The notes: generated by a model not told the origin, from the letters alone. Shown: positions 1-63,603, numbered from the whole stretch's first letter. The stretch: DNA of 63,603 nt, filler included, from Babesia bigemina (GCF_000981445.1; 10 parts of 10 records of this genome joined end to end with filler, not necessarily neighbours in it); one strand, 5' to 3'. Numbers and translations are program-made.

Positions 1-500
1 CGATGTAGAGTGGATAAAGGGGCGATGTAGAGTGGGTTAAGGGGCGATGGAGAGTGGGTTGAGGGGCGATGGAGAGTGGGTTGAGGGGCGATGTAGAGTG
101 GGTAGAGGGGCGATGTAGAGTGGGTAGAGGGGCGATGTAGAGTGGATAAAGGGGCGATGTAGAGTGGGTTAGGGAGCGATGTAGAGTGGATAAAGGAGCG
201 ATGTAGAGTGGATAAAGGGGCGATGTAGAGTGGGTTAGGGAGCGATGTAGAGTGGATAAAGGGGCGATGTAGAGTGGATAAAAGGGCGATGTAGAGTGGA
301 TAGAGGAGCGATGTAGAGTGGGTTAGGGAGCGATGTAGAGTGGATTAAGGAGCGATGTAGAGTGGGTAAGGAGCGATGTGGAGTGGGTTAAGGGGCGATG
401 TAGAGTGGGTTAAGGGGCGATGTAGAGTGCGTTAAGGGGCGATGTAGAGTGGGTTAAGGGGCGATGTAGAGTGGCTAAAGGGGCGATGTAGAGTGGATAA
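1..500. repeat. 22-bp minisatellite R22 (+ strand GCGATGTAGAGTGGGTTAGGGA variants), distal 3' flank of ves copy 1
   Basis: CGATG recurs every 22 (sometimes 21) nt. Confidence 0.97.
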
Positions 501-516
501 TAATCACCACTTAGGT

Positions 517-579
517 CATGTCATCGCTGCCGTTACCATGTCATCGCTGCCGTGACCATATCATCGCTGCCGTGACCAT
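517..579. repeat. 20-bp minisatellite R20 (CATGTCATCGCTGCCGTGAC), 3 units
   Basis: Direct tandem units between the junction motif and R12. Confidence 0.92.
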
Positions 580-583
580 CAAC

Positions 584-870
584 TTGGTCAGCACGTTGGT
601 CACTACTTTGGTCAACACGTTGGTCAGCTACTAGGTCAGCACATAGGTCAGCACATAGGTCAGCACATAGGTCAGCACATAGGTCACCAGGTTTGTCATG
701 GCATTGGTCACCACTTTGGTCATGGCATTGGTCACCACGTTAGTCAACACCTTGGTCAACACCTTGGTCAACACGTTGGTCAACACGTTGGTCAACACTT
801 TGGTCATGGCATTGGTCAGCACATTGGTCAGCACGTTGGTCAACACATTGTCACCACATTGGTCAACACT
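584..870. repeat. 12-bp minisatellite R12 (TTGGTCAGCACA variants)
   Basis: TGGTCA recurs every 12 nt. Confidence 0.95.
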
Positions 871-994
871 TCAGTTAACTATTACACAATCACATACAAC
901 GAGTAATGGGTGATTCAACAGATTAAAGCACAATTCATAAGTTAGGTGAGTAGGTGACGCTAGGTGAGTGTAGATAGTAGGCACGTGAGTACGA
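871..994 (-). other. Conserved A-type 3' flanking block (putative 3' UTR) of ves copies
   Basis: Near-identical blocks at about 26298-26412, 40837-40960, 43036-43158, 50031-50153, 59919-60042. Confidence 0.8.
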
Positions 995-3900
995 TTAAGG
1001 TTGTAGATAAAACACCCTGTTAAGCTTGTTAACACGTGCAGCAGCGAGTAGTGATTGAGCAGCAATGCGATGACTCGAGGGACTATGCAGATGCGATTTG
1101 ATGTGGAGCAGGTCGAGGCGGATGACCATGATGTGGAGGAGGTACAACAGAGAGAGGAGCCAGAGGGAAAGGACAAGGTAGGAGAAGGGTTGTCTGATGA
1201 TCCATAAGAAGTTGTCACATTCTTCGAACAGCTTCTTGAAATATTCTGAATTGAGAACTTTCTTCAACTGACTACAGAAATCAGAGCACTTCTTTGGCGA
1301 TTCACTATTCAACGTCGACGCCTCACCAAAGACGAAGCCATACTGGTAGAGCGTTGGTGCGACGCCTTTGCAGTCGACGATAGAAGGGCATTGGCAATTC
1401 GATTGCTTGGTCTTGTCGTTGACCGATCCATGCTCCCCCTTCTTACACTTATCTCCCCTCAGACACCCACGGCAGCCCCAGTCCTGGCAGTTGATGGAGC
1501 AGAAGGAATTGTAGAGATTGTTGAGTAGGTCCCAGAATGACCACGGGAGGTAGATGGCCCAGGAGAGGTAGGTGTTGGATTGTTTCTGGGTTGAATAAAT
1601 ATACGCATCTACGCACAGTGATGTGAGGTAAGGTGCACATTGAAGTTTCTCATCTTTCTTCCGGCATACGGTATTCATCGACAGACTTGACAGGTCAACA
1701 AGTGGACCTAGGTGGTTTTTATCTTGATGAATAGTCTGGCTGCTGCCATACGCATTTGCGAGAGCATTTGTCAGCTTGCTTGTGTCGTCATATAGTTCAA
1801 TGGATTGCTTCTTGATGGCTTCTTCAATGGATTCCATAATGAGGCCTTTGCGTGAAGTTTTCGTACTGTGCCAACCATCAACCAACGATAATACGAAACC
1901 GTAGTGTTCGGGCAATGATGCCGGCGTTTTTGGAGCTAGGCAGAATAGAGACGACAAATAGAAGTTTGAGAAAAGTTTTTCCAAAATTTCACATATATCC
2001 TCACCTCTGCGCGTGGACCCAGAGAAACCCCTGAATCCAAGTGGAGTTAAGCAGGGCATACCTTTTTTGGAAGCGGACGGACAGTTGGCGCAGTCATATT
2101 TGCATCCAATGGAACTCAATTGGTGAGGCTGGTGACCGGGAAGTGAGTCGCTTATGTAGCTCATTAGTGGCGACGTTGGTTGACAATTTGCTTTTGTGCT
2201 AGGTTTGTCGGTTGAGTGGTTGTTACATGGCCATTTGGTTGTCGTGACGTCCTTGCCGTAAAGGCATTGCGACCAGCCACCGTGCATAGCGCTTAGCTTG
2301 CATCGGCTGAACAGATATTGGAGCTGCGGTAACATCCTACGTAGGATATCAACGATGGTATACAAGCATTCCTCCCCTGACGCTGGATACTTTAGCTTAA
2401 GTGAGTTAGTACAGAAGTCAGCTGCGTACGTTGTGAATTCGTCACCGTGACCAGCAATAGTGGCCAACACGTCGTATGAAGTTGAGCAGATATGGTCCAA
2501 CGCTGCATTAATGTCGCCATGTGTTACCCTATTAGGATAGGTATCGGCGTAGTAGGCTTTCAGGTCGTCGAACTCCACTTCGAAGTCAGCATCACCCGTC
2601 TCTATCGGTTTCCGCTTGGGCTTCGTCAGGACGCTAGTCAAACCGTCAGATAGTAACACGGCATACACGTTGTTGTACGGCAAACCCGCGAACCAAACAA
2701 GCATCTCGTACACGGAGCACGGCTGCCTCCTTGCATTGAAAGTGGACAGGTGACATACCTGATTATAGGTTTCTAAGCAATCGAAGAGACTGTTGATTGC
2801 GTGTTTAGTGTCAGCAGAGGAATTAAAAACACACGGATAATTGCCAACGATTTTCACTCGAACTGCCGTACCATTCATCTCGTCACTACGCCTCAGCTCA
2901 CCGTCTTGTGACTTAGAGTCCTTGGCTACGACGTAACCGTAGCGCTTGAATAAACATCCCAGATCGGAAGAGAGACTGATTGTACTTTTGGAGAAACGTC
3001 TGTCACATTCTGCCTTTAACGTACTCATATCCTCAAAAATCATTCCGAGCATGGTAACAAAAACCTTGGCGCAGCACTGAGCGTCGGCGGTTAATGTCTC
3101 TTTATTCTCCTTCGTGTCAACCCACTTCATCGCAGGATACCCCTCGTACTTGTTTATGTACGCGTTGTCAAGCTCATTTACGAGAGCCGTAAGACCGGTC
3201 TTTACTGTGTCAAGTAATTGGGGATTTTGAGGGGCGGCGAACTGCTTGGATGAAAAGGCGACGATTTCTTCTTTTAGCTTCTCATGTTTTGCGGCAGCAA
3301 TATGGTCATAGTGAGCATACGTGGCATACGAAAGATGTTCGAAAAGTTTGCTGAAGGCCTTTTTGATATTCTCGAGCTGAGTATGCTGCGGAGACAGCCT
3401 GTGGATCTGAATCATAATGTAAGTTATTAGCCCAGTTATAACAGCGTTAATATCGGTAAACATGGAGTTCAACCGTTCTTTAATTCTAATTTCGCCTAAG
3501 TTACTATTCATTTTTTTAAGTAAACCTTTTATTCCGTTGTCGAAATCTTTCTTCATTATTTTTTCCATACTAACTGCTCGCTCCTCAACCAATTCTTTTA
3601 AAGCATTCAGGTCTGCATGTCGTTCGTTGGCAAACAAATTTTGGACTTCGGAGGTTATAATGGAAAACGCATCCTTCACTTCCTGGGTAAGATCATTAGC
3701 AAGCGCTCTGATGGCGCGCTCAGCCATTTGATGAGCATCGATGACCGATACATGAACGGCACGTATGGCCTTCTGTATTTCCGCTGCAGCTTTATTGACA
3801 TCTCTTTCCACATTTTCGATTTTCCTTTGAAGCTTATCGAGCTCCGCCTTCAACTGTTGTAACAATGTCTCCGTCTCCGTGCGCAGTTTAGTCACTTCCC

Positions 3901-5548
3901 CTGGCACCTCTTGCATAGTTCTAACTTTGAGAAGCACATGGTCTATAGCTTCTTTGACCTTTGATTTTGTACCACCGTTATCAGCATCCTTCTTGAACAG
4001 ATCTATAGCATTTTGAAGGCCCGCTTTGTTTACACTCATGTCCTTGATATCTTCAATTTCTTTTGATGTTTTAATCCCGTCGATTTTCTTATATACTGTT
4101 TCGTTTGAAATGCCACCGTTCTTGATCTGCGTGGTGAGTTCCTGAAAAACATCGCTGAATTTTTTGCCTTTCGTCGATTTCACTGCCTCGATAGCGTTAT
4201 GCATTTTTTGTTTGAGATCACCGACAAGCTCTTCGTAAAATGTGCCTTTATCGTTTTGTTTTTCACCAAGCTGCTTTAATACATCCTTGAAGTAACCGAA
4301 AAGCCTTGTATCCCACTCCAACTTCTTTATGGCATTAAAAAGTCCACCAGTGCGCATCGCCGTATCAGACCATGCGTGCAAGTTTCGAGTAACCTCTTTA
4401 TCCAGAGCAGTATTGAACTCTTGAATGACCACATTGGCACTTTGGGCGTTACTAGCGCTTCCAATGCCATCCTTAAGCTTATTAATGACTTCCTCAATTG
4501 GACGATCGATCTCAGCCTTTAATTTATTCAAACCTTTGTCCACTTCCGTTCCTAGATTCCCAAGCGCCGCTGTCGCTTCGCCGACCAATGCACAGACTTT
4601 ATTGTACGCCTCTCTAGCCGTAGCCTGAACGGCCTCCTCTAGATTAGAAACTTCCTGCTGCGCTGCTCTAACCTGTACCTCAATGTTGGACCTGATGTTC
4701 TCAACGTCGTCATGTATCGTGGAATTCGTCTTACCACCTTTCGTGTTCTTTTCTTTGTCAAGATCCTGCAATTTCTCCCTTATGACATCAAAATTCTGCA
4801 GAATAACTTTTTTATACTTTTCATCAAAACCTTGATCTGACCCACCAACCAACATATCAACACTTCTTTTAGCTATTTTGACATCAGATTTGACAGTCGT
4901 AAACTGGGAAACCTCCACATCATCGAGATTCAATATATACGTGTAAACCTCATTAAGTTTTTTATCCAACGCCCTTTTAAGTTCCTCTGATTTATTATCA
5001 ATTTGGCCACAGACATACACTTTTTGCTCCACCAACTCGTGATCAACAGCTGCAACCTGTGTCTCGTATTCCTTATTATCGCCAACTTTTTTCAATTGAT
5101 CGATCACCTTTATTATAGGTTCAATTTCATTATTCAATCTGTCATGTAGTGCGCTGTCTAATTCATTAACGTGGTTATATTTAATTTTCGTAACCTCTTT
5201 TTTTAGGTTACGAAGCATAATCTTCCAGGCCTCCAGTTGAGTGGCAAGTGGAGCATTTTCTTGCTTCATCACCTCTTGATAATATGTACCTGCAACAGAA
5301 TTAAGACCACTACTCAACTCACCTAATTTGTCTGTCACTGCTTTTGTCTTCTTGCCTACCTCCCTCTCATACCCCTCCAACCACCCCTTCACCGCGCCGA
5401 CAGCATCCACAAGCCCAGTACGCCCGGAGCCAATTTTTTTATTTACCTCTTCTAGTACTGTTTCTAGTCTCTTATCAAGATGTTTGTCATAAGTTGTCAC
5501 TTCATTCTCATCCTTCACCGCACCAAGCACACCACTCAAAAATCCCAT
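995..5548 (-). CDS. ves1: ves1-like variant surface antigen, copy 1 (A-type tail); 5' leader interrupted, possibly a silent cassette
   Basis: Frame open 995-5701; first ATG 5548 (MGFLSGVL). Motifs YSDLDRLCD, PCSVYEMLVW, GMPCLTPLGFRGFSG, TM, LDLLHIKSH...RVFYLQP. Family assignment from recalled motifs, no search run. Confidence 0.8.
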   Translation of the reverse strand: MGFLSGVLGAVKDENEVTTYDKHLDKRLETVLEEVNKKIGSGRTGLVDAVGAVKGWLEGYEREVGKKTKAVTDKLGELSSGLNSVAGTYYQEVMKQENAPLATQLEAWKIMLRNLKKEVTKIKYNHVNELDSALHDRLNNEIEPIIKVIDQLKKVGDNKEYETQVAAVDHELVEQKVYVCGQIDNKSEELKRALDKKLNEVYTYILNLDDVEVSQFTTVKSDVKIAKRSVDMLVGGSDQGFDEKYKKVILQNFDVIREKLQDLDKEKNTKGGKTNSTIHDDVENIRSNIEVQVRAAQQEVSNLEEAVQATAREAYNKVCALVGEATAALGNLGTEVDKGLNKLKAEIDRPIEEVINKLKDGIGSASNAQSANVVIQEFNTALDKEVTRNLHAWSDTAMRTGGLFNAIKKLEWDTRLFGYFKDVLKQLGEKQNDKGTFYEELVGDLKQKMHNAIEAVKSTKGKKFSDVFQELTTQIKNGGISNETVYKKIDGIKTSKEIEDIKDMSVNKAGLQNAIDLFKKDADNGGTKSKVKEAIDHVLLKVRTMQEVPGEVTKLRTETETLLQQLKAELDKLQRKIENVERDVNKAAAEIQKAIRAVHVSVIDAHQMAERAIRALANDLTQEVKDAFSIITSEVQNLFANERHADLNALKELVEERAVSMEKIMKKDFDNGIKGLLKKMNSNLGEIRIKERLNSMFTDINAVITGLITYIMIQIHRLSPQHTQLENIKKAFSKLFEHLSYATYAHYDHIAAAKHEKLKEEIVAFSSKQFAAPQNPQLLDTVKTGLTALVNELDNAYINKYEGYPAMKWVDTKENKETLTADAQCCAKVFVTMLGMIFEDMSTLKAECDRRFSKSTISLSSDLGCLFKRYGYVVAKDSKSQDGELRRSDEMNGTAVRVKIVGNYPCVFNSSADTKHAINSLFDCLETYNQVCHLSTFNARRQPCSVYEMLVWFAGLPYNNVYAVLLSDGLTSVLTKPKRKPIETGDADFEVEFDDLKAYYADTYPNRVTHGDINAALDHICSTSYDVLATIAGHGDEFTTYAADFCTNSLKLKYPASGEECLYTIVDILRRMLPQLQYLFSRCKLSAMHGGWSQCLYGKDVTTTKWPCNNHSTDKPSTKANCQPTSPLMSYISDSLPGHQPHQLSSIGCKYDCANCPSASKKGMPCLTPLGFRGFSGSTRRGEDICEILEKLFSNFYLSSLFCLAPKTPASLPEHYGFVLSLVDGWHSTKTSRKGLIMESIEEAIKKQSIELYDDTSKLTNALANAYGSSQTIHQDKNHLGPLVDLSSLSMNTVCRKKDEKLQCAPYLTSLCVDAYIYSTQKQSNTYLSWAIYLPWSFWDLLNNLYNSFCSINCQDWGCRGCLRGDKCKKGEHGSVNDKTKQSNCQCPSIVDCKGVAPTLYQYGFVFGEASTLNSESPKKCSDFCSQLKKVLNSEYFKKLFEECDNFLWIIRQPFSYLVLSLWLLSLLYLLHIMVIRLDLLHIKSHLHSPSSHRIAAQSLLAAARVNKLNRVFYLQP

Positions 5549-5853
5549 CACCCCGTCACACAGCCTGTCAAGGTCAGAGTACACAATCCCACTGCCGTCG
5601 TAGCCTTTTGACTCAGGGTTGAAGCCTAGGAAGGTCTCGAGACCAGTGCAGAGGTTATTAAGGATGATAGTAGGCTTATTATTTGAGGTGTTTTTAGCGT
5701 TTTAAATTTTGTCAAATTTCTTGCCAAGCTCCCTAGGCGGCACATGGTCAGGGCAGTGGCAAGAGGTGGAAGAGGGGAAGTGAAGGGTGACAAGGCACAA
5801 GTCATTATTATGGTTTAAGGAGGTCATAGCGTTAATATGGCGAGGTAAATCGA
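5549..5853 (-). other. Conserved cassette leader: ATG 5827 in frame with ORF, TAA at codon 42 (5702-5704)
   Basis: Manual translation MTSLNHNNDLCLVTLHFPSSTSCHCPDHVPPRELGKKFDKI*NAKNTS...GIVYSD. Confidence 0.85.
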
Positions 5854-6340: not shown

Positions 6341-6440
6341 NNNNNNNNNNNNNNNNNNNNNNNNNNNNNNNNNNNNNNNNNNNNTTAATTAATTAANNNN
6401 NNNNNNNNNNNNNNNNNNNNNNNNNNNNNNNNNNNNNNNN
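6341..6440. other. Artificial assembly linker (N44-TTAATTAATTAA-N44)
   Basis: Same 100-bp spacer with six-frame stops at 13289-13388, 20364-20463, 27501-27600, 34641-34740, 41818-41917, 49080-49179, 56355-56454, 58922-59021. Confidence 0.99.
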
Positions 6441-6890
6441 TCTACATCGCTCCCTAACCCACTCTACATCGCCCCTTTACCCACTCTACATCGCTCCTTT
6501 ATCCACTCCACATCGCCCCTTTATCCACCCTTCATCGCCCCTTTACCCACTCTACATCGCTCCCTAACCCATTCTACATCGCTCCCTAACCCACCCTACA
6601 TCGCCCCTTTATCCACTCTACATCGCTCCTTAACCCACTCTACATCGCCCCTTAACCCACTCTACATCGCTCCCTAACCCACTCTACATCGCTCCCTAAC
6701 CCACTCTACATCGCTCCCTAACCCACCCTACATCGCCCCTTTACCCACTCCACATCGCTCCCTTACCCACTCTACATCGCCCCTTATCCACTCTACATCG
6801 CTCCCTAACCCACTCTACATCGCTCCCTAACCCACTCTACATCGCCCCTTAACCCACTCTACATCGCTCCCTAACCCACTCTCCATCGCT
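6441..6890. repeat. R22 minisatellite (CCACTCTACATCGCTCCCTAAC) upstream of ves copy 2
   Basis: 22-nt tandem units ending at CTCGAATTACC. Confidence 0.97.
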
Positions 6891-7194
6891 CGAATTACCT
6901 CGCCATATTACCCCTATGACCTCTATAAACCATCCTAATAACTTGTGCCTTGTCACCCTTCACTTCCCTCCTTCCACCGCTTGCCACTGCCCTGACCATG
7001 TGCCGCCTAGGGAGCTTGACAAGAAATTTGACTAAATTTTGAACCTATAAAACACCTTTAATAATAACCCTACTAACATCCTTACTAATCTCTGCTCTGG
7101 CCTTCAGACTTTCCTCGGCTTCAACTCTGAGTCAAAAGGCTACACTGGCCAGGGGATTGTCTACTCTGACCTTGACAGGCTGTGTGATGCAGTG
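6888..7194 (+). other. Conserved cassette leader: ATG 6916 in frame, TAA at codons 40 (7033) and 45 (7048)
   Basis: MTSINHPNNLCLVTLHFPPSTACHCPDHVPPRELDKKFD*ILNL*NTF...GIVYSD. Confidence 0.85.
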
Positions 7195-10100
7195 ATGGGA
7201 TTTTTGAGTGGTGTGCTTGGTGCGGTGAAGGATGACAATAATGTAAAACACTACGTAAAAAACATTGAACCTAAGCTTAATGATGTTATTTTTAAATTAC
7301 ATGACAGTGTTGGTAAGGGTGCCAGTGCGTTTGGGCCTTGCCTTGTAGAGGTTGGCCGGTGGTTGCATTATTATGATGAGCATGTTAGCAGACGTACCGA
7401 TTACATTAAGACTCATCTAGATAGTCTCGAAAACGAGATAACGCAAAATCAAAATGTCTTCAACACTGAGAAAACAAATAGCCTCGACAAGCAATACGCT
7501 GATTGGGATCGCCGCGCCAAGCTGTATGTGAGTAAGGTGGAAGAGGCTGAAAAGGCAACCAAGAAATTGGATCCAGAACTTCAGCAAATGTTAGAAAAAC
7601 CGATGAGATTAATCAAACAAAGTATTGAACAGTTTAAAAAAATCTGTGAAAATAGAGATTTGGATATTCTGTATGGTGCTGCAGCGGATGAGTTGGCGAA
7701 GCTGAAGGGGAGTGTGGAAAAGCATATCACAGAAAGAATTAAAACATTGGAACAACGTTTATTAAAAACTTTTGAAAAGAATATTCAAGGTGATATTAAC
7801 GATATTAGGAAGGATTTAATCGCTATCGATTCAGATCTGGGCGGTTGGATAACAGTGGCACAGGATATTGTGGAAAATGCTATATTGAAGTGTAATAAAG
7901 TATTGGCAATGGTGAATGAAAATCATGAGAAATACAAACTTTCGAAAAGTGGTCCCGAAATTCTTGTTAAAGCTAAATTATTACACGATAAAGCCATTGA
8001 CCTGAGGGCGGCAGCAGTAGCAGCCAGAGATGCTGTCAAAGAGAACGTCACTAACGCGTTGAAGACTGTCGTCGAAATGAACGGAAAGCTTATGGCCGAT
8101 CTGAATGATATGAAAAGTCATATTTACAATGCCGTTGAAGCTTATGTTAAGAAGACTCTGTTAACTGATGTAAAATCTAAGGTTAGTCAGATTCTAAATG
8201 GCCACCAATCGAATGGTATAAAGCAAATTATAGAGCACGTGAAAGAGCATGCTGCAAAATTTAAGAACTCTGCGACGTTTGGAGATATGGTTCAAGCATG
8301 GGTATGCGAGATATTGCAGGAGAACAAGGATATTGTGAAAAGTAGGCTTGAGACTTATGTTACGCAAACTAAGCTACAGTTCACAAACCGGGAATATCAG
8401 AATCAAGAGAAAGATAAAATTAACGACAAATTCAGGCAGGAGATTGCGAAAGTGATTATGAGTCATCTTGAGAGAGAAGTCTATAGTACGGGCAATGTAA
8501 CATTCGTTGGTGAGTCTACTGGTAAATTCGCAAAGGATTTGCAAACCGTTCAAGCAACTTGCAAACAATTTGCTATGCAGCTTGATAAGAAGGTTAATGC
8601 TGACATATATAGTGAGTTCTTCGACAGCGTAACTAGGGCCATTGAAGAGAAGTTGACAGGTAAGCAACACGGCAACTCGGATCTCCACACAGCCGTCTAC
8701 TACATCCTCAAAGCTCTCCCAAAGAAAGTCCGAGATGCTTCCACGGAACTGAATTTGTTGGTCCGTGACGGCGTCAAACAGGCCAATCTTGGAAACGTGG
8801 AGACGTCCTTTAGTGTTGCGGAAGCAATTAACACCGCATTAGGAGAGGCTGTAGCCACTAGCACGTTATCATCCAATGCGAAACATCCATATGACGTGGA
8901 TAATAAAATTCACGGCGTATTGAACGACAACATTGGGATGAGTACTAAAGGTGTAGCCGTTGACATAACGCACAAGAATTCCATTTTGCAGGGATATAAG
9001 GGGCACGTGTCTCAATCACCAAAGAGCACAACTGCTACGTCAGACATTCCAGAACCAATAGACGGCGCTCTTCCACAGGCGATCAAAGGCGTTAGAGACA
9101 TTGGTCTTCATAGCCTCACAACTGGTGGAGATATCACTAACATCCTAGACTCCGCAAATCACATCTTCGAGCAAGCGTTCGCCGAAATAAAAAAACAGCT
9201 CAAAGGTCTGACAAAGTTGGTTGGTGATGAGGGGCATGTTTTGGAAAGTGAGAAGGGTATCAGAACACTTTTAAATGATTTGAAAAAATTGCTTGGAACG
9301 GGTAGCTATAACGTTTGGGATGTTTTTATCAATTCTCTAGGGAAACTCCACCAGCGCATGAATCGTATCATTGGTGCTAGCGTGGCAAAATTAATCGGAA
9401 AAGCTGCAAATTTCCATGATGTCACTATCCCACAGCAAACGACGCATACTACGAAGGATGTTTTGAATGCTGTTGAAACTCATGTTACTTCGGCTACCAC
9501 CAGCATTGCAATCATAGCGCAAGAATTGTATGCTGATAGGAAAAGAAAAGGGCTTGATGATTTGAAATTACTCTGTGCAACCGAAATCGGTGGCATTGAT
9601 GTTATAATTAAGAGCCATTTCGAATGTGGAATGAAGGGTTTGATACGTCACGTGAAATACGGAATTTCACAATTTTCGAATCTTCCACCATCTCTAAGCG
9701 TACCACATTTGTCATCAAAAATTGCAGACTTCGGAGACATAGTATTAATTTACGTTGGACAGCAGGTTGAAACATCAGATAAGTCTGCAACCTCCCCCCC
9801 AACCACCGACCAACCCACCGACCCAGCCAAACAGCTAACCAAAATCAAAGATGCCTTCGACGAATTGCTTGGACATCTTCATACTCATGAAAATAATCGT
9901 AAATACATCTATGATCATCCTTTCACCGTTAAACTCACCACCCTCAAAAACGCCACTAACGATTTATCCCCCTCCGCCTTCGCCAACCCCCGGCACCCGG
10001 AGCTGCTCGATGCGGTCAGAGCGGGGCTGCAGGGGTTTGTCGAGGAGATGGAGCGGGTGTATGTGAACGGGTATGATGATGGAAACAAAATTAATTGGGA

Positions 10101-12805: not shown

Positions 12806-12818
12806 CTGACCAAGTTGA

Positions 12819-13145: not shown

Positions 13146-13156
13146 AGTGGTGATTA

Positions 13157-49365: not shown

Positions 49366-49369
49366 CAAC

Positions 49370-55349: not shown

Positions 55350-55654
55350 CACCCCGTCGCACAGCCTGTCCAAGTCAGAGTACACAATCCCCTGGCCAGT
55401 GTAGCCTTTGGAAGCAGAGTTGAAGCCGAGGAAAGTCTCAAGGCCGGTGCAGAGGTAATTTAGGATGTGATTAGGGTTGTTATTTAAGGTATTTTTAAGG
55501 TTTTAAATTTTGTCAAATTTCTTGCCAAGCTTCTCAAGTGGCACATGGTCAGGGCAGTGGCAAGAGGTGGAAGAGGGGAAGAGAAGGGTGACAAGGCACA
55601 AGTTATTGCTATGGTTTATAGAGGTCATAGCGGTATTATGGCGAGGTAATTCGA
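55350..55654 (-). other. Conserved cassette leader: ATG 55628 in frame, TAA at codon 42 (55503-55505)
   Basis: MTSINHSNNLCLVTLLFPSSTSCHCPDHVPLEKLGKKFDKI*NLKNTL... Confidence 0.85.
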
Positions 55655-56354
55655 GGGATGTAGAGTGGATAAAGGGGCGATGTAGAGTGGGTTAAGGAGC
55701 GATGTAGAGTGGGTTAAAGGGCGATGTAGAGTGGGTTAGGGAGCGATGTAGAGTGGGTAAAGGGGCGATGTAGAGTGGGTTAGGGAGCGATGTAGAGTGG
55801 GTTAGGGAGCGATGTGGAGTGGTTAAAGGGGCGATGTGGAGTGGGTTAGGGAGCGATGTAGAGTGGGTAAAGGGGCGATGTAGAGTGGGTAAAGGGGCGA
55901 TGTAGAGTGGGTTAGGGAGCGATGTAGAGTGGATAAGGAGCGATGTAGAGTGGGTTAGGGAGCGATGTAGAGTGGATAAAGGGGCGATGTAGAGTGGATT
56001 AAGGAGCGATGTAGAGTGGGTTAAGGGGCGATGTGGAGTGGATTAGGGAGCGATGTAGAGTGGGTTAAGGGGCGATGTAGGGTGGATAAAGGAGCGATGT
56101 CGAGTGGATTAGGGAGCGATGTGGAGTGGATAAAGGGGCGATGTAGAGTGGATAAAGGGACGATGTAGAGTGGGTTAGGGAGCGATGTGGAGTGGATTAG
56201 GGAGCGATGTAGAGTAGGTTAGGGAGCGATGTGGAGTGAATTAGGGAGCGATGTAGAGTGGGTTAGGGAGCGATGTAGAGTGGGTAAAGGGGCGATGTAG
56301 AGTGGGTAAAGGGGCGATGTAGAGTGGATAAGGGAGCGATGTGGAGTGGACAAA
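55654..56354. repeat. R22 minisatellite upstream of ves copy 8
   Basis: 22-nt units. Confidence 0.97.
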
Positions 56355-56454: not shown

Positions 56455-57213
56455 ATTGCGCTTTGTAATGCTTATAACAGCAACAAAAGGCACGACGGTA
56501 TGGAGCATCCTAACGTTTCAGACGCCGATTTGTCAACTTTGTCGAAAGAAACGACATGTAATTATCCAAACAAAAACATTCATTGCGCACCATATCTGTC
56601 GACCTTATACAGCGATTACTACTACTATGCTGCCGAAAAGCACACTGCTCTCTACCTGTCCTGGGCACTGTATTCAGCGTGGACGTTATACGAATATCTG
56701 AAATCGTTGCTAGATGCCTTCGGTAACATTTCCTGTCAGGATTGGGGATGTGACAAATGCCAACATGGAGGCAAATGTAAACCAGGCAGACATGGCCTTA
56801 ACTACAACTGCCGATGCAAAGGGCTTGTTGAGTGCCGCGGTGTAAGGAGCATCTTTTACGCCTACGGGTTCACATTTGGTAATGCTGAAGTCTTATCTGA
56901 CTTTGAGAATAAAAGATACTGTCACAATTTCTACAAACAACTGCAGAACGTATTAAATTCCAAATGTTTCATTGACCTCTTCCAAAAATGTGACGAATTC
57001 ATATTCACCATCAGGCAGCCGTTTATATGGCTGAACATCGCACTCTGGTCACTGTCCCTCTTCTACCTCATCTGCGTGATGGTTGGTCGCCTGGACGTTT
57101 TCCACATCCGATCCCATCTCAGATCACCCTCATCGCACACCATCACTGCGCAATCACTGTTGGCTGCAGCGCAAGTCGGAAGGCTTGCCAAGATAACTTA
57201 TCTACAACCGTAA
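56455..57213 (+). CDS. ves1: ves1-like antigen, copy 9, 3' fragment (B-type tail)
   Basis: Frame open from the gap edge (IALCNAYNS...); CAPYL, CQDWGC, TM, AKITYLQP. Confidence 0.8.
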   Translation: MALCNAYNSNKRHDGMEHPNVSDADLSTLSKETTCNYPNKNIHCAPYLSTLYSDYYYYAAEKHTALYLSWALYSAWTLYEYLKSLLDAFGNISCQDWGCDKCQHGGKCKPGRHGLNYNCRCKGLVECRGVRSIFYAYGFTFGNAEVLSDFENKRYCHNFYKQLQNVLNSKCFIDLFQKCDEFIFTIRQPFIWLNIALWSLSLFYLICVMVGRLDVFHIRSHLRSPSSHTITAQSLLAAAQVGRLAKITYLQP

Positions 57214-57357
57214 TTGTATTCACATTTGTAATTCACAGTAACTCACGTAACTACTCACCTACTCACCTAACAAACAAACGTAGTCTAATGTCTCGAATTA
57301 CTCGAGCGGCAACCTGTGAACTGGATAGCACCTAGATGAGGTGATGAGTGAACGACA

Positions 57358-57702
57358 ATGCAACGTGTCTACCTAACAACCAGGCAAAGTGTTAACCTAG
57401 CACACAGGCAAAGTGCTAAGCTAGCATCCAGGCAAAGTGGTAAGCAAGCAACCAGGCAACGTGCTAAGCAAGCAACCAGGCAACGTGCTAAGCAAGCACC
57501 CAGGCAAAGTGTTAACCTAGCACCCAGGCAAAGTGCTAAGCTAGCACCCAGGCACAGTGCTAAGCTAGCACTCAGGCAACGTGATAAGCTGGCACACAGG
57601 CAAAGTGCTAAGCTGGCACCCAGGCGAAGTGCTAACCTAGCACCCAGGCAAAGTGTTGGCCTAGCAACCGGGCAACGTGGTAAGCTGGCGGATGAACCGT
57701 AA
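57358..57702. repeat. R24 minisatellite
   Basis: 24-nt units. Confidence 0.95.
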
Positions 57703-58198
57703 TTTGGTGGGTGCGTTAAGACGTTGATTGCCTGTTGCGTTGAGTCACGCGTTGGCTGTGAGAGGTGTCCGCGTTGCCCATTGAGTGAGTGTCAGGTGAG
57801 GCTAGGTGATTGGTCGCTAACGTAGGCGGTCGTGAGGGCCGCGGCGGGTGACCCAAGTCGTGTGTTGCGAGTCACCGGCAGGGTGGAGTTATCCGCGTCG
57901 GCCTGGTTAAGTAGCGTTTATAGGCGGCGATGTAGCGATTGTTAATATCACATTTAGGCACTTAGCCGACCCGCTGCGCCAGCATGGCGTCGATACCGCG
58001 GCTCGTAGAACGGTGCTGCTGCACTGTGGGAGTTGAGCGCACGGGTCGCTGCAATTTTTATGGCGTTGCGAATGATAAATAATTTAAGTGGCTGTTGGTG
58101 CCAATCACATGCGTCGCGTCAGGGAAGCTGTGGTATCCTGGGCAGCGTGGGTGTCGGTAGCCTGGGCTGGGGGAACACAGGGGTGAGGGTAGGTGTTG
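57703..58198 (+). promoter_or_regulatory. Second copy of the conserved ~500-bp GC-rich non-coding element
   Basis: Colinear with the reverse complement of 15505-16002. Confidence 0.4.
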
Positions 58199-58671
58199 AT
58201 GAGGGGACTGGGAGCGGCAGTGGTACGTGTTGCAGTTGGTGAGTGCGTTGCTGGGTGATTGATATGTCAGCAGGTTGAGGGGAGTGGGAGCGGCAGTGGT
58301 ACGCGTTGCAGTTGGTGAGTGCTGCTTGAGTGATTGATATGTCTGCAGGTTGAGGGGACTGGGAGCGGCAGTGGCACGTGTTGCAGTTGGTGAGTGCGTT
58401 GCTAGGTGATTGACATGTTCGCAGGTTGAGGGTACTGGGAGCGGCAGTGGCACGTGTTGCAGTTGGTGAGTGTTTGCATAGGTGATTGATATGTTTGCAG
58501 GCTGAGAGACTGGGAGCGGCAGTGGTACGTGTTGCAGTTGGTGAGTGCGTTGTTTGAGTGATTGATATGTTTGCAGGTTGAGGGGAGTGGGAGCGGCAGT
58601 GGTAGTGTTGCAGTTGGTGAGTGCTGCTTGAGTGATTGATGCTTGCAGGTTGAGGGGACTGGGAGCGGCAG
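58199..58671 (+). repeat. R76 exon/intron-like tandem repeat, about 6 units
   Basis: Units restart after CAG at 58274, 58349, 58425, 58501, 58577, 58649; each has TTG|GTGAGT...TGAT/TGAC...GCAG. Confidence 0.88.
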
Positions 58672-58921
58672 CGATGACAAGGTCACGGCAGCGATGTCAT
58701 GGTTACGGCAGCGATGACAAGGTCACGGCAGCGATGACATGGTTACAGCAGCGATGACATGGTTACAGCAGCGATGACATGGTTACCAAGTTAGTGGTCA
58801 CGGCAGCGATGACATGGTCACGGCAGCGATGACATGGTCACGGCAGCGATGACATGGTTACAGCAGCGATGACATGGTTACCAAGTTAGTGGTCACGGCA
58901 GCGGTGACATGGTCACGGCAG
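58666..58921. repeat. R20 minisatellite
   Basis: 20-nt units with two CCAAGTTAGT interruptions. Confidence 0.93.
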
Positions 58922-59021: not shown

Positions 59022-59643
59022 TAGAGTGGGTTAGGGAGCGATGGAGAGTGGGTTAAGGGGCGATGTAGAGTGAATAGAGGGGCGATGTGTAGTGGGTAAG
59101 GGAGCGATGTAGAGTGGGTAAGGGGCGATGTAGAGTGGGTAAGGGAGCGATGTAGAGTGGGTAAAGGAGCGATGTAGAGTGGGTTAAGGAGCGATGGAGA
59201 GTGGAAAAAGGGGCGATGTGGAGTGGGTAAAGGGGCGATGTAGAGTGGGTTAAGGGGCGATCTAGAGTGGATAAGGAGCGATGTAGAGTGGATAAGGAGC
59301 GATGTAGAGTGGTTAAGGGGCGATGTAGAGTGGGTTAGGGAACGATGTAGAGTGGATAAAGGAGCGATGTGGAGTGGGTAAAGGAGCGATGTAGAGTGGG
59401 TTAAGGAGCGATGTGGAGTGGATAAAGGGGCCATGTGGAGTGGATTAAGGGGCGATGTAGAGTAGATAAAGGGGGGATGTAGAGTGGATAGAGGAGCGAT
59501 GTGGAGTGGGTTAGGGGCGATGTAGAGTGGATAAAGGGTCGATGTAGAGTGGATTAAGGGGCGATGTGGAGTGGGTAAAAGGGAGATGTAGAGTGGGTTA
59601 AGGGGCGATGTAGAGTGGGTTAGGGAGCGATGTGGAGTGGATA
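59022..59643. repeat. R22 minisatellite (G-rich on +)
   Basis: 22-nt units. Confidence 0.96.
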
Positions 59644-59660
59644 ATAATCACTACTTTGGT

Positions 59661-59915
59661 AACCATGTCATCGCTGCCGTGACCATCAACTTGGTCAGGT
59701 GCTTGGTCACCACTTTGGTCAGCACGTTGGTCATGGCATTGGTCAGCACCTTGGTCAGCACCTTGGTCAGCACTCTGGTCAGCATCTTGGTCAGCACATT
59801 GGTCATGGCATTGGTCAGCACATTGGTCATGGCATTGGTCAGCACTCTGGTCGTGGCATTGGTCAGCACATTGGTCATGGCATTGGTCAGCTACTAGGTC
59901 AGGTGGTTGATCATC
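59661..59915. repeat. Single R20 unit followed by R12 minisatellite
   Basis: AACCATGTCATCGCTGCCGTGACCATC then TTGGTCA every 12 nt. Confidence 0.92.
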
Positions 59916-60042
59916 ACTTTAGTTAACTACTACACAACAACATACAACGATGAATGAGTGATGCAACAGCTTAAAGCACAATTCATAAGTTAGGTGAGTA
60001 GGTGATGCTAGGTGAGTGTGGACAGTAAACACGTGAGTACGA

Positions 60043-63000
60043 TTAAGGTTGCAGGTAAAACACCCTGTTAAGCTTGTTAACACGTGCGGCAGCCAGTAGT
60101 GATTGAGCAGCAATCCTATGACTCGAGGGACTATGCAAATGCGATTTGATGTGGAGCAGGTCTAGGCGGATGACCATGATGTGGAGGAGGTACAACAAAG
60201 AGAGGAGCCAGAGGGTCAAAACATTAAGCATGAAAGGCCATCTTATACATAGTAGAATGTCGTCGCATTTGTCGAAGAGGTCTCTGAAATATTGCGAGTG
60301 TAGCACGTCGTAAAGCTGTTTGCAAAATTGGGAACACGTTTTACGCGTGCCTTCAGCGTTTAAGGTAGATGCTTCACCGAAGCAAAAACCGTGCCTATAC
60401 AATATGGGTGAGACACCTCTACACTGAACTATTGAAGCACACTGACAATACGGCGTCTTAGTCTTCTCATCGCTGAGTCCATGCTGACCACGTCGGCATT
60501 TATCAGCGCGTAAACACGTGCGACATCCCCAATCTGCGCATAAGATATTGCAGAATTCGTCATATAGGCTCTTGAGGTATTTCCAGAAATCCCACGGCAG
60601 GTAGACAGCCCAGGAGAGATAGGTTTTTGAATTCTTAGATGGTAGACACGAGTAGTAATCTTCACTAAGCGATAACATATATGGAGCGCAATATGCTTTC
60701 ATTTTAGGATCATTATATCCTGTTATCGAAAGACTGGATAACGCAGCGTGTGGAGGCATACGAACCTGAGTGAGTTGAACAGGCCGTGGATCACCATACG
60801 CATTACGCAATGCTTCTGTAAAATTCGTAGGTTTTTCGTATAGTTCAATGGAGACGTTTGTAATTGCTTCCTCAAAAGGTTTTTCCACACCTGTCTTACG
60901 CTTCTTGTTGTCGCTACCAACCCACCCAGCAACAAGCGACAACGTGAATCCGAAGTGTTCCGGTAACGTAGATGGCGTTTTAGTTTGCAAGCTGAATAGG
61001 ACCTTAAGGTTGCCGTTGTCAAAGAATTTGCCTAGCACGTCACTTATGTCTCTACCTTCACGCTTGGTCCCGGAGAAACCTCGGAATCCTAGGGGAGTGA
61101 GACAGGGCATTCCAGGCGTGGATCTAGGGCAGGTAGTACATTTCGCTTTGCAGCCAATGTCACTCAAAACGTGAGGTAAGTGGCCAGGTAAGCAGTCGTT
61201 CAGATAGGACATCAACGGCGATTTTGGTTGGCAATTTGGTTCGCACTTTGCTTGACCATTTGGTTGGCATGTTACTTTGCTGCTTGAGTGTTCGTTACAG
61301 GGCCAGTTGGTTGTCTGTACGTCTTTGCCATAATGGCAACCTGCCCACCCGTACTCTCTCGCGGCGGTGCTGCACTGTGTCTCCAGGTATTTGAGCGGCG
61401 GGAACAATCTGCGGAGGATGTCGAGGAACATGTCAAGGCATTCCTCAGCCGACGTCGGATATCTGAACTTGAGAGAGTTATTGCAGAAGTCTACGCCGTA
61501 CGTTGTGTATTCGTCGCCGTGACCGATGATGCGAGTCAGCACGTCATGCGATGTTGCACAAATATGGTTGATGGCAGAATGTATATGATCATATCGGATC
61601 TTACTCGGGAACACGTCCACGTAGTACGCTGTCAAATCGTCATATTCAGCATCCAATTCCAATCCGTCGTCGCTCGCCTGTATTATCTTCTTCTTCGGCT
61701 TCTCCATCAGACCAGTGAAACCATCGCGCACAAATATCTCGTAAACCGAATTATAATGCAAACCAGCGCACCAAACTAGCATCTCGTACACAGAACATGG
61801 ATTACGTTTGGCAGTTAAAGATGCCATGTGGCCGAGAGTATAGTACGTTTCCAGGTGGCAATGGAGGCAGGCAAGTACATCAAGGACGTGGAACTTATCA
61901 CTTTTCTTTTCTCTGCCGGTCTTCTCATCCTCGTTTGATTTGCACTTCAAAAGATGTGTTTTGATGTTTTCGACGTTCGTAAGTGCCTGCCTAATTTTTG
62001 CATGAATATGTGAACCCATCATCTGGTCACTACGCCTCAACTCGCCGTCCTGCTTATCCCTATTGGAAACAACGTAACCGCAATCACTTAAAAATGAACC
62101 AAGAACACTAATACGATCTATTTGTTTGGAATGCCAATCTAATTTGCATTTCTCTCTCAACACATCCAACTCCCCTTTCACCATCTCCACTATCGTCAGG
62201 CAGACCTTGGCGCAGTTGCGGCCCTCAGGGGTTAAATCGTACTTTTTCTCAGATTTTTGTTTAAGAGCAGGAACAGCTTTTTTGGAGTCAGAATCTTCCA
62301 CTTCCTTCAACAAAGCCCCGTTGAATCGTTTACCCGAGTACCTGTTCACGTACGCGCGGCCGAGTTGCTCGGCGAATTTGGAGAGGCCGGCCTTGAGGGG
62401 GGCGAGGAGGGGGGAGGGGGAGGTGAAGGAGGGAGAGAGGGAGTCAACAAGAGAGTTGAGGGAGGCGAGTAAATCAACGAAATTATGGTCGTAGTTATAT
62501 AACTTGTCTTTTTCGAGGTGATTAAGAAGTTCGACGAGTTTGTCGAAAATGGCCTTGAGTTGAGAGGGGTAGTCGGTGGAGGGAGAAGGGTGGGAGGCGA
62601 TAAGTCTTTCGATTTCGTCTTTATTGTAGACGATAATGGGACGGAGATAGGCACGGACGTAGGGAACTAACTCTGCTACCTTTTCCCCGTCTTCCTCCAT
62701 TTTCTTTCTGAGCTGCATAAGCAAATTATGTTCTTCCGTCACATCACCTTTATGACCAGCAGGAACACCGCTCAAGGTTTTCATAGAGCCTATGACGCCT
62801 GTTCTCATGGCATTGGATATGAGTCCATCAATAATAATACTTTGGCTTTCCACTAACATTTCCAAAGCTCTCAAGTCCGCCTGTCGTTCAGTTGCAAAGA
62901 GCTGCTGCACGCTAGACGTGACGATTAAGAATGAAGCTTTGATTTGATTAAGCATATTATTCCGAAGATCGTCTACGGCTTGCTTGCACATTTTTTCACA

Positions 63001-63603
63001 TTTGACTAATTCCTCTACAAAGTCATTGATAGTTTTGGTTAGCGTTTGATCGGCTGTAATTATAGCTAGATCAATACCTATCACAATGCTTTCTACATCG
63101 ATTTTCAATTTTTTCATAAGCTCGTCTGCTTTTCTCCTCTTCTCTCTCACGTCACTCGGCACAGTCTCCAGGTTTTCAACAATCGCAATCACAGTCTTGA
63201 TGGCACTTTGGATCCTGCCCTGTGTATGCGAAAACTCTTCATTTTTCAGTGCGTATAAATTATAGTGAATTTTGGCAAGTTGGGTATCCAGGAATTCCGT
63301 TTTTAAGTCGTACAAATATCGATGCATAAATTCACCAGTTTTCGAGTATTCGGATAAAAGCCTGTGGATGTTAGCTTCAATTCCTTCGGACCATTCTCTG
63401 AGCTTTGAGATGGTTAAATCTATATTTATTCCGTCAACCTTGTCGGTAATAGCGTCTATAGCAGCGTCAACATTTTGTGCATACTTCTCCGATCCAGCCG
63501 CTTTGTATAGGTTTTTTAGAAGCTTATCAGTCTTCGTCACAGCATCGTCCACGTTGCCCATTTTATACCTATCCAGACAAACCGCAATTTCCTCGGCAAC
63601 ATG
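60043..63603 (-). CDS. ves1: ves1-like antigen, copy 10, 5'-partial (A-type tail)
   Basis: Frame open to the window end; family motifs, TM, RVFYLQP. Confidence 0.8.
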   Translation of the reverse strand, partial: HVAEEIAVCLDRYKMGNVDDAVTKTDKLLKNLYKAAGSEKYAQNVDAAIDAITDKVDGINIDLTISKLREWSEGIEANIHRLLSEYSKTGEFMHRYLYDLKTEFLDTQLAKIHYNLYALKNEEFSHTQGRIQSAIKTVIAIVENLETVPSDVREKRRKADELMKKLKIDVESIVIGIDLAIITADQTLTKTINDFVEELVKCEKMCKQAVDDLRNNMLNQIKASFLIVTSSVQQLFATERQADLRALEMLVESQSIIIDGLISNAMRTGVIGSMKTLSGVPAGHKGDVTEEHNLLMQLRKKMEEDGEKVAELVPYVRAYLRPIIVYNKDEIERLIASHPSPSTDYPSQLKAIFDKLVELLNHLEKDKLYNYDHNFVDLLASLNSLVDSLSPSFTSPSPLLAPLKAGLSKFAEQLGRAYVNRYSGKRFNGALLKEVEDSDSKKAVPALKQKSEKKYDLTPEGRNCAKVCLTIVEMVKGELDVLREKCKLDWHSKQIDRISVLGSFLSDCGYVVSNRDKQDGELRRSDQMMGSHIHAKIRQALTNVENIKTHLLKCKSNEDEKTGREKKSDKFHVLDVLACLHCHLETYYTLGHMASLTAKRNPCSVYEMLVWCAGLHYNSVYEIFVRDGFTGLMEKPKKKIIQASDDGLELDAEYDDLTAYYVDVFPSKIRYDHIHSAINHICATSHDVLTRIIGHGDEYTTYGVDFCNNSLKFRYPTSAEECLDMFLDILRRLFPPLKYLETQCSTAAREYGWAGCHYGKDVQTTNWPCNEHSSSKVTCQPNGQAKCEPNCQPKSPLMSYLNDCLPGHLPHVLSDIGCKAKCTTCPRSTPGMPCLTPLGFRGFSGTKREGRDISDVLGKFFDNGNLKVLFSLQTKTPSTLPEHFGFTLSLVAGWVGSDNKKRKTGVEKPFEEAITNVSIELYEKPTNFTEALRNAYGDPRPVQLTQVRMPPHAALSSLSITGYNDPKMKAYCAPYMLSLSEDYYSCLPSKNSKTYLSWAVYLPWDFWKYLKSLYDEFCNILCADWGCRTCLRADKCRRGQHGLSDEKTKTPYCQCASIVQCRGVSPILYRHGFCFGEASTLNAEGTRKTCSQFCKQLYDVLHSQYFRDLFDKCDDILLCIRWPFMLNVLTLWLLSLLYLLHIMVIRLDLLHIKSHLHSPSSHRIAAQSLLAAARVNKLNRVFYLQP

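What the first reader, a model, noticed from the sequence alone, without database searches (positions are those of the whole stretch)
1..63603. Repeat-bounded archive of ves-like cassettes with a fixed modular grammar
Seen: as far as each piece extends, it reads in gene sense [R22]n - CTCGAATTACCTCGCCATAATACCGCTATGACC-type leader - ORF - conserved 3' block - [R12 or R24]n - [R20]n - junction - [R22]n. R22 has the same polarity at both ends, which implies head-to-tail ~7-kb units that the assembler broke inside repeats. Known: Babesia bovis ves1 varies by segmental gene conversion into a locus of active transcription; trypanosome VSG cassettes are bounded by upstream 70-bp repeats and a conserved 3' end. 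Inference: a VSG-like silent donor library in which invariant flanks provide homology and silencing signals around hypervariable bodies. I do not know of this flank architecture being described for ves genes, but cannot verify novelty.
Basis: partly seen in the sequence, partly recalled or inferred. Interest (0 to 1): 0.85.

Follow-up and report, generated by a model that had tools for sequence, protein, structure and literature searches.

The report
Headless antigen-gene arrays in cattle parasite
These DNA pieces, closest to the cattle blood parasite Babesia bigemina, carry surface-antigen genes that have lost their start and sit between the same short repeats; they likely lie in rows at chromosome ends as a mostly silent reserve that swaps sequence with the complete, expressed genes.

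Summary
The window is ten separate contigs joined by artificial linkers. Each carries a Babesia bigemina ves1b (VESA1b) gene. The repeat grammar holds exactly in 8 of 10; two carry an extra small gene. All 7 visible 5' ends lack the normal start: a non-coding leader is fused into the gene at different points. The bodies are fully open. Among 131 B. bigemina homologs, the complete N-terminus occurs in 32/32 chromosome-interior genes, 0/16 chromosome-end genes and 2/83 small-contig genes; B. ovata shows a similar split. Reference end copies form same-strand tandem rows. Published blood-stage RNA is dominated by complete interior genes. Cassettes are mosaics of each other (58/106) and share long tracts with 2/32 complete genes. 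Best reading: a subtelomeric archive of decapitated donors, with homology inside the ORF rather than in the repeats. Against it: a published proteome has many peptides matching end copies, which my simulation does not explain, and complete genes share tracts with each other more often than with the archive. I found no description of this architecture in ten literature searches. New variant of a known kind.

The parts
1..994 (-). Piece 1, 3' flank: conserved 3' block, R12 (584-869), R20 (517-579), junction, R22 (1-500)
998..5701 (-). Piece 1, 5'-truncated ves1b open frame, 1568 codons stop to stop; internal MGFL Met at 5548; aa ~900-1400 are 91-95% identical to complete gene BBBOND_0305380
5702..6340 (-). 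Piece 1, 5' flank: R22 (5854-6340) and leader; leader ATG at 5827 is closed by an in-frame stop
6441..7050 (+). Piece 2, 5' flank: R22 (6441-6891) and leader; leader ATG at 6916 is closed by two in-frame stops
7051..12303 (+). Piece 2, truncated ves1b open frame, 1751 codons; internal Met at 7195
12307..13288 (+). Piece 2, 3' flank: 3' block of the R24 type, R24 (12450-12806), R20 (12818-13144), R22 (13159-13288)
13389..14725 (-). Piece 3, distal flank: R12 (14549-14725), R20 (14320-14538), R22 (13389-14302)
14790..16014 (-). Piece 3, insert: unique spacer, 75-bp repeat (15265-15503; looks like short introns plus GS-rich mini-exons, inferred) and last exon of a small Cys-rich protein with a C-terminal hydrophobic segment; 16 homologs, all B. 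bigemina hypothetical proteins
16015..16542 (-). Piece 3, 3' block and R24 (16015-16380)
16546..20361 (-). Piece 3, ves1b open frame cut by the contig end, 1272 codons
20464..20810 (+). Piece 4, 5' flank: R22 (20464-20758) and short leader; leader ATG at 20785 is out of frame with the gene, which is joined in mid N-terminal domain
20811..26294 (+). Piece 4, truncated ves1b open frame, 1828 codons; MGFL Met at 21426
26298..27500 (+). Piece 4, 3' flank: 3' block, R12 (26416-26830), R20 (26835-27105), R22 (27127-27500)
27601..28411 (+). Piece 5, 5' flank: R22 (27601-28383) and leader start; leader ATG at 28408 is out of frame; only about the first dozen codons of the gene are missing
28412..33868 (+). 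Piece 5, truncated ves1b open frame, 1819 codons; MGFL Met at 29018
33872..34640 (+). Piece 5, 3' flank: 3' block (mosaic of the two types) and R12 (34001-34636)
34741..35514 (+). Piece 6, 5' flank: R22 (34741-35360) and leader; leader ATG at 35389 is closed by two stops
35515..40833 (+). Piece 6, truncated ves1b open frame, 1773 codons; MGFL Met at 35668
40837..41817 (+). Piece 6, 3' flank: 3' block, R12 (40968-41106), R20 (41111-41494), R22 (41514-41817)
41918..43158 (-). Piece 7, 3' flank: 3' block, R12 (42120-43031), R20 (41920-42104)
43162..48483 (-). Piece 7, truncated ves1b open frame, 1774 codons; MGFL Met at 48330
48484..49079 (-). Piece 7, 5' flank: R22 (48640-49079) and leader; leader ATG at 48609 is closed by a stop
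49180..50153 (-). Piece 8, 3' flank: 3' block, R12 (49370-50014), R20 (49180-49365)
50157..55502 (-). Piece 8, truncated ves1b open frame, 1782 codons; MGFL Met at 55349
55503..56354 (-). Piece 8, 5' flank: R22 (55653-56349) and leader; leader ATG at 55628 is closed by a stop
56455..57210 (+). Piece 9, last 252 codons of a ves1b gene
57214..58921 (+). Piece 9, 3' flank: 3' block, R24 (57373-57686), spacer, 75-bp repeat (58200-58671) running directly into R20 (58666-58921) at a short shared word
59022..60042 (-). Piece 10, 3' flank: 3' block, R12 (59691-59902), one or two R20 units, R22 (59022-59640)
60046..63603 (-). Piece 10, ves1b open frame cut by the contig end, 1186 codons; a mosaic of three other cassettes
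6341..6440 (.). One of nine identical artificial linkers (44 N, 12 bases, 44 N) that join the contigs; not biology

Best explanation
The pieces are ves1b surface-antigen genes that lack their start and are spaced by a shared set of short repeats; they likely come from tandem rows at chromosome ends that act as a mostly silent sequence reserve for about 30 complete ves1b genes, most of them inside chromosome 3. Shown: family, 5' truncation at several different points, open bodies, the split between complete interior genes and truncated end genes, mosaicism among cassettes, and long shared tracts with two complete genes. Inferred: expression runs mainly from complete loci, with switching among them; tracts are copied from cassettes into complete genes using homology inside the ORF (the conserved block just before the MGFL Met, the conserved C-terminal part, or retained N-terminal sequence); the repeats serve exchange among the rows themselves and perhaps silencing, not productive conversion.
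For: Family: best C-terminal hit 91% to a B. bigemina protein; homologs 0303890 and 0305380 are labelled BbigVes1b in Jackson 2014's table. Truncation: leader ATG closed by stops in 5 of 7 and out of frame in 2 of 7; the MGFL Met is internal, 10 residues into a motif that begins at about residue 140-200 of complete proteins; 5 of 5 complete genes with coordinates have CDS span = 3 x length + 3, so no upstream exon is expected (lengths). Partition: complete N-terminal motif in 32/32 interior, 0/16 end, 2/83 small-contig B. bigemina homologs; B. ovata 23/24 on one 3.7-Mb contig, 1/53 on small contigs, 0/10 on a 3.1-Mb contig. Rows: 14 of 14 listed large genes at the right end of chromosome 3 are on the reverse strand, neighbours 1.2-3.8 kb apart; 4 of 4 at the left end are forward. 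RNA (Mexico strain on the BOND reference, 3 calves): complete 0304560 at 310/98/157 CPM, 0303650 at 0.6/1.9/82; 5 of 30 complete genes looked up pass the filter, against 1 of 16 verified end copies (about 1.5 CPM); all cassette-sized rows together are 7-15% of the ves1b-like signal. Exchange: 58 of 106 truncated copies share a 100-aa tile at >=90% with another; B. bigemina against B. ovata 0 of 1742 tiles. Window piece 1 is 91-95% identical to complete 0305380 over about 500 aa and 18-41% in the preceding body. Complete 0312580 shares two tracts (93-95%) with a truncated copy, and there the 12 best hits of each are all truncated, while 7 and 9 of the 12 best hits for its C-terminal half are complete genes. 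The 37 codons before the MGFL Met vary mostly at third positions (7/8/24), the leader does not (8/7/8; Fisher p = 0.065). 14,753 codons in 9 ORFs hold no stop.
Against: Proteome of strain PR: 24 single-gene rows for chromosome-end large genes with 49 quantified peptides, against 17 rows labelled ves1b with 33 (hand tally; 10 of the 24 verified as truncated, the rest by place only). Holding out each complete gene gives on average only 0.8 unique peptides matching end copies against 18 matching other complete genes (only 16 end copies in the test), so cross-matching from reference-like complete genes does not explain it. Flow into complete genes looks modest: 8 of 457 tiles (2 of 32 genes) against 43 of 457 (13 of 32) among complete genes; complete and truncated copies are partly separated on a C-terminal tree (15 changes against 27.9 shuffled, 0 of 1000). 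12 of 131 homologs have the leader ATG in frame. The RNA comes from another strain than the reference, so reads from diverged cassettes may fail to map, and genes under 1 CPM were removed. Direction is suggested for one gene only. Both homolog lists are the best 120 of 373 and 217 hits.
Confidence: 0.58

Rival explanations
1. The cassettes are a second class of working genes, transcribed in place from the leader and translated from the MGFL Met (or from the leader ATG where it is in frame), each in a small part of the population.
For: Peptides for 24 end-gene rows in the PR proteome, most including gel fraction 2, not explained by the hold-out test; bodies and transmembrane tails intact; 14 cassette-sized genes have 0.5-5 CPM in blood and almost none in tick stages; 12 of 131 homologs have an open leader.
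Against: The MGFL Met lies inside a conserved motif, with 2-11 ATGs upstream of it counting the leader ATG; codons before it still show third-position bias (p = 0.065); truncation points differ from copy to copy; RNA is dominated by complete genes; peptide scores are low and the peptides' sequences were not seen.
Confidence: 0.2
2. VSG-like system: one or a few expression sites inside the repeat rows, not yet recognised, take whole cassettes using the repeats as homology.
For: Two homologs on small contigs have a complete N-terminus and bodies closer to truncated than to complete genes; one has private patches with five truncated copies. This would explain cassette-type peptides. The most expressed B. 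caballi ves1c gene lies near a telomere (PMC10463595).
Against: Conversion starting in R22 would carry the headless leader into the site (inference); tracts seen start inside ORFs; by accession order neither small-contig complete gene is among the 23 unplaced genes in the RNA table; the top transcript comes from an interior gene among housekeeping genes.
Confidence: 0.12
3. A graveyard: duplicates that lost their 5' ends, multiplied by unequal crossing-over at chromosome ends, with no donor role; open bodies reflect youth and homogenisation.
For: Exchange within the rows is far more common than with complete genes; deletions also hit the flanks (pieces 2 and 9).
Against: No stop in 14,753 body codons while 7 of 7 heads are blocked; bodies are only about 20-35% identical to one another, so not recent copies; synonymous bias in the anchor and tail; a similar partition in B. 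ovata.
Confidence: 0.1

Closest known systems
BbigVes1b family of Babesia bigemina (Jackson et al. 2014, PMC4066756; read parts 3-6 of 10, Discussion, supplementary legends, rows of the proteomics table)
   Same: Same protein family; C-terminal transmembrane domain; that paper reports 28 lineage-specific ves1b loci on chromosome 3, 0-3.3% orthology of ves1b at conserved positions between strains, and many subtelomeric loci unassembled.
   Different: In what I read it does not describe 5'-truncated copies, end rows or flanking repeats; its proteomics table labels the end copies 'hypothetical protein' or 'undefined product'. Figures and the FTP gene lists were not seen.
B. bovis ves1 segmental gene conversion and proposed 'functional pseudogenes' (Brayton 2007, PMC2034396; Mack 2020, PMC7485966; passages)
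   Same: Truncated ves1 copies were already proposed as donors; conversion and in situ switching coexist.
   Different: B. bovis genes are 75% interstitial and often head-to-head, with tracts near 109 bp. Here the donors are near-full-length, headless, same-strand, repeat-spaced and at chromosome ends, and tracts of 200-500 aa are seen.
Pneumocystis msg-I with UCS and CRJE (PMC10622565, passages)
   Same: Subtelomeric silent copies that lack the 5' part, conserved blocks at both ends of the coding region, mostly open frames, mosaicism.
   Different: msg-I has one expression site and one fixed 33-bp junction; here there are at least 32 complete genes and the truncation point varies.
Trypanosoma brucei VSG archive with 70-bp repeats (PMC4858185, abstract)
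   Same: Repeat upstream, conserved 3' end, large low-expressed archive.
   Different: 70-bp repeats are in both donor and expression site and give homology for whole-gene conversion; here the donors lack the start, and repeats at complete loci are untested.
Plasmodium falciparum telomere-associated repeats (rep20) and Borrelia vls / Anaplasma msp2 cassettes (recalled, no call)
   Same: Short degenerate repeats beside subtelomeric antigen genes; headless donor cassettes.
   Different: No sequence relation tested; leads only.

Membership tests
BbigVes1b | Homology to named ves1b proteins | tested here: met
   0303890 and 0305380 are labelled BbigVes1b and are hits at E < 1e-198; piece 1 is 91-95% identical to 0305380 over about 500 aa.
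BbigVes1b | Conserved C-terminal domain with one transmembrane helix | tested here: met
   One hydrophobic peak 59-62 aa from the end in 9 of 9 long ORFs (piece 3 has one further peak), as in two complete genes.
BbigVes1b | Complete N-terminus with start codon and first conserved motif | tested here: not met
   Missing in 7 of 7 visible 5' ends: these are truncated members.
BbigVes1b | Pfam VESA1 N-terminal domain | tested here: inconclusive
   No hit in 11 window ORFs; precomputed PF12785 shows on 1 of 120 homologs, so the model barely covers this clade.
VSG-type archive | Repeat upstream of silent copies and conserved 3' end | tested here: met
   R22 in 7 of 7; conserved 3' block in 10 of 10.
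VSG-type archive | Same repeat at the expression site | not testable with these tools
   No genome is held for the window and no eukaryotic genome DNA could be fetched.
VSG-type archive | Conversion boundaries in the repeats | tested here: not met
   Both long tracts shared with complete genes start inside the ORF; protein level only.
VSG-type archive | Archive copies silent | tested here: inconclusive
   Low in published RNA but many peptide hits in a published proteome; neither was read for the window's own copies.
Pneumocystis msg-I (UCS/CRJE) | Silent copies lack the 5' part of the expressed gene | tested here: met
Pneumocystis msg-I (UCS/CRJE) | One invariant junction element at the start of every copy | tested here: not met
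   At least three join points in the window and more in homologs; the 111-nt block before the Met averages 80% identity.
Pneumocystis msg-I (UCS/CRJE) | Single expression site | tested here: not met
   32 complete genes; 5 of 30 looked up have RNA, with different ranks between calves.
B. bovis LAT | Head-to-head ves1 pair with a shared promoter | tested here: not met
   Every visible 5' end abuts R22; reference end copies are same-strand.

The most novel reading that the evidence does not exclude
B. bigemina and B. ovata run a two-tier antigenic-variation system: rows of 100 or more start-less, fully open ves1b cassettes at chromosome ends, spaced by a G-rich repeat with telomere polarity that keeps them silent, feed sequence into about 30 complete interior genes. 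This would be a structurally dedicated donor archive in an apicomplexan, with most of the ves1b repertoire hidden under 'hypothetical protein' labels.
Probability: 0.4. Interest if true: 0.82.

Novelty: new variant of a known kind. Interest (0 to 1): 0.66.

Why it matters
How B. bigemina varies its red-cell surface antigens is open: a 2015 review leaves location and expression of its ves1 genes blank and says Babesia lacks subtelomeric families (PMC4413850, passages). A clean split into expressed complete genes and headless end cassettes gives direct tests (which loci start transcripts, where new tracts come from). It may explain why ves1b loci are almost never orthologous between strains and why this genome is large and fragmented. 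It also means many current gene models start at an internal Met. In passing, the standard SpeI-AvaI diagnostic PCR target maps onto the conserved block of this family, which would explain its sensitivity and its cross-reaction with B. ovata.

Tried and rejected
Whole genome of the window: none held, so no genome-wide repeat map. Joining pieces by their repeat ends: no overlap above 28 bp. Leader as an intron with an upstream exon: rejected because 5 of 5 complete genes checked are intronless and no AG lies at a shared place after the stop in the five late-join copies. Leader as a real alternative N-terminus: disfavoured, no third-position bias. Retroposed 5'-truncated copies: disfavoured, no poly(A) tail after the 3' block and the leader-side join is clustered. 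Pfam: only weak coiled-coil-type hits under cut-off. ESM Atlas on the small protein: best 0.82, leads only. Earlier findings: nothing relevant. Cross-matching as the source of end-copy peptides: tested, does not suffice. No structure or complex prediction was run. Six search hits that the window itself encodes were left out of all counts.

Full report
What the window is. It is ten contigs joined by nine identical artificial linkers. Pieces 2-8 rise from 6848 to 7175 bp, so their even size likely reflects sorting. A search with the last 624 aa of piece 6 gave 373 hits; the named ones among the best 120 are all B. bigemina or B. ovata, the best at 91%. Two hits are labelled BbigVes1b in the proteomics table of Jackson et al. 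2014 (PMC4066756). So the genes are ves1b, closest to B. bigemina.

The grammar. R22 precedes the leader in 7 of 7 visible 5' ends. All 10 pieces run to a conserved 3' end followed by R12 or R24, then R20 in 9 of 9 and R22 in 6 of 6 that reach so far. Repeat motifs are absent from 45 kb of ORF. The 3' UTR comes in two types: one leads to R24 (pieces 2, 3, 9), the other to R12 (the other seven). Pieces 3 and 9 break the rule: after R24 come a unique spacer and a 75-bp repeat, and in piece 3 the end of a small Cys-rich transmembrane-protein gene followed by R12-R20-R22. That gene has 16 homologs, all B. bigemina hypothetical proteins; by locus tag some lie in end rows and two directly follow complete ves1b genes. 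Pieces 2 and 9 look like deletion forms of the long flank (inference). R22 is G-rich on the strand opposite to the gene, holds telomere-like hexamers but no TTTAGGG, and has G-quadruplex-type patterns in 11 of 13 arrays against 6 in the other 56 kb. With the gene orientation below, its G-rich strand would point to the chromosome end, like a telomere (inference). These are leads.

The 5' ends are decapitated. Complete ves1b proteins begin with a conserved motif and reach a second block ending in the MGFL Met near residue 150-210. In the window a 62-nt leader core (86% mean identity) is fused to the gene at three places: about a dozen codons in (piece 5), in mid domain (piece 4), and shortly before the second block (pieces 1, 2, 6, 7, 8). 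The leader's ATG is closed by stops in five and out of frame in two. Homologs show further join points, and 12 of 131 have the leader in frame. Leader codons vary evenly (8/7/8 columns by position), while the 37 codons before the MGFL Met vary mostly at third positions (7/8/24; p = 0.065). That block seems to be kept as protein although translation from the MGFL Met would skip it. Five of five complete genes with coordinates are intronless. The nine long ORFs hold 14,753 codons without a stop, each with the transmembrane tail.

Two tiers. A second search with the first 200 aa of a complete gene (best 120 of 217) allowed a count. Of 131 B. bigemina homologs, the complete motif is in 32 of 32 interior genes, 0 of 16 chromosome-end genes and 2 of 83 on small contigs. 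I set the end/interior line by locus tag after seeing the data; two 'interior' genes (0300080, 0400060) lie at the inner border of end rows, and four untagged genes were placed by accession order. Part of the 31 'other truncated' small-contig models may be cut by contig ends. B. ovata: 23 of 24 complete on one large contig, 1 of 53 on small contigs, 0 of 10 on another large contig. Coordinates in Jackson's table show 14 large genes over 147 kb at the right end of chromosome 3, all reverse, neighbours 1.2-3.8 kb apart, the last 0.9 kb from the end; four at the left end are forward, and complete 0300080 faces them. Seven of the 14 were verified as truncated. Leader-derived N-termini occur on end copies and on no interior gene. 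Whether R22 fills those gaps could not be seen.

Expression. In blood-stage RNA-seq of another strain mapped to the reference (PMC9806345, passages and rows of supplementary file 1), complete 0304560 has 310, 98 and 157 CPM and 0303650 rises to 82 in one calf; 5 of 30 complete genes looked up pass the 1-CPM filter, against 1 of 16 verified end copies. Three end genes and 11 unplaced genes of cassette size (identity by size and place only) have 0.5-5 CPM, together 7-15% of the signal. Two B. ovata small-contig genes have RPKM under 0.1 (one verified truncated). Against silence: the PR proteome has 24 end-gene rows with 49 quantified peptides, against 17 rows labelled ves1b with 33 (hand tally; 28 of 29 'variant' rows seen). 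Held-out complete genes give only 0.8 unique peptides to end copies against 18 to complete genes. So cassette-type sequence seems to be translated in that culture, through heavily converted loci or in place, unless many of these low-score matches are false. This is unresolved.

Exchange. At 100-aa tiles and 90% identity: truncated against truncated 231 of 1285 tiles (58 of 106 genes); complete against complete 43 of 457 (13 of 32); complete against truncated 8 of 457 (2 of 32); between species 0 of 1742. Boundaries are sharp: piece 1 jumps from 18-41% to 91-95% against 0305380 near aa 900; piece 10 is a patchwork of three cassettes at up to 100%. For 0312580 the shared tracts sit among truncated neighbours while its C-terminal half sits mostly among complete ones, which suggests archive-to-gene flow in that case. 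Tiles of 100 aa miss tracts of the B. bovis size (mean 109 bp, PMC7485966). A finer test (private patches of 25 aa or more) links 12 of 34 complete genes to truncated copies and 20 of 34 to other complete genes, some patches lying in conserved blocks. On a C-terminal tree the two classes are partly separate (15 changes against 27.9 shuffled) but interleaved (FastTree, 142 rows, drawing cut).

Mechanism. Most likely the rows are a reserve. Loss of the start makes a cassette safe to keep in many copies; shared repeats let rows exchange and resize; tracts reach complete genes through homology inside the ORF; expression switches among complete loci. The repeats cannot serve as 5' homology for productive conversion into a complete gene, because that would bring in the headless leader. 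Each functional step is inferred.

What is known. Donor archives of headless or silent antigen genes are known in Pneumocystis (PMC10622565, passages) and trypanosomes (PMC4858185, abstract), and truncated B. bovis ves1 were proposed as functional pseudogenes (PMC2034396, passages). Ten searches found eight distinct papers naming ves1b with Babesia. I read parts or passages of six (PMC4066756; PMC5660447 passages, one section and two supplementary rows; PMC10463595 parts 1-3 of 5; PMC6630957, PMC4413850 and PMC10471129 passages) and saw two only as listings (PMC12064010, PMC9477259). None of what I read describes these repeats, the truncation or the two tiers. Subscription papers, theses, figures and Jackson's gene lists were not seen. 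PMC9531838 (passages) reports only sporadic VESA expression in single cells; its supplements were not read.

Verdict. New variant of a known kind; interest 0.66.

Noticed in passing
window 35586-35863 (piece 6); partial matches in pieces 1, 2, 4, 5, 7, 8: The four primers of the widely used B. bigemina SpeI-AvaI nested PCR (as printed in PMC7909277 and PMC12025327, passages) match the conserved ves1b block with 2-6 mismatches and give exactly the published 278-bp and 170-bp products in piece 6. A multi-copy ves1b target would explain the assay's sensitivity and its reported cross-reaction with B. ovata. I did not find this link stated in those passages; no separate search was left.
   Followed up: yes
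window 14790-16014 and 57690-58671: Small multi-copy gene family with a possible signal peptide, 75-bp intron/mini-exon-like repeats, a Cys-rich part and an invariant hydrophobic tail; 16 homologs, B. bigemina only, unnamed; four looked up are absent from the RNA table.
   Followed up: partly
homologs P0012 and P0135 (small contigs): The only two small-contig genes with a complete N-terminus; both start alike and have cassette-type bodies. Candidates for expression sites inside the rows.
   Followed up: partly
window 33872-34000 (piece 5): The 3' block starts like the R24 type and ends like the R12 type, so a crossover lies in the invariant stretch of the 3' UTR.
   Followed up: partly
window 25055-25125, 51381-51437, 61223-61269: A 12-bp coding repeat inside the conserved part of the ORFs has the same period as R12 and a similar core; R12 may derive from it.
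   Followed up: no
homologs P0105 and P0217: Their annotated N-termini read through two leaders in tandem, or from the leader-upstream sequence, so the leader itself is duplicated in places.
   Followed up: no
B. ovata homologs P0172, P0182, P0206: A different leader is fused at nearly the same point as in piece 5, removing only the first dozen codons; the same kind of cut in two species.
   Followed up: no
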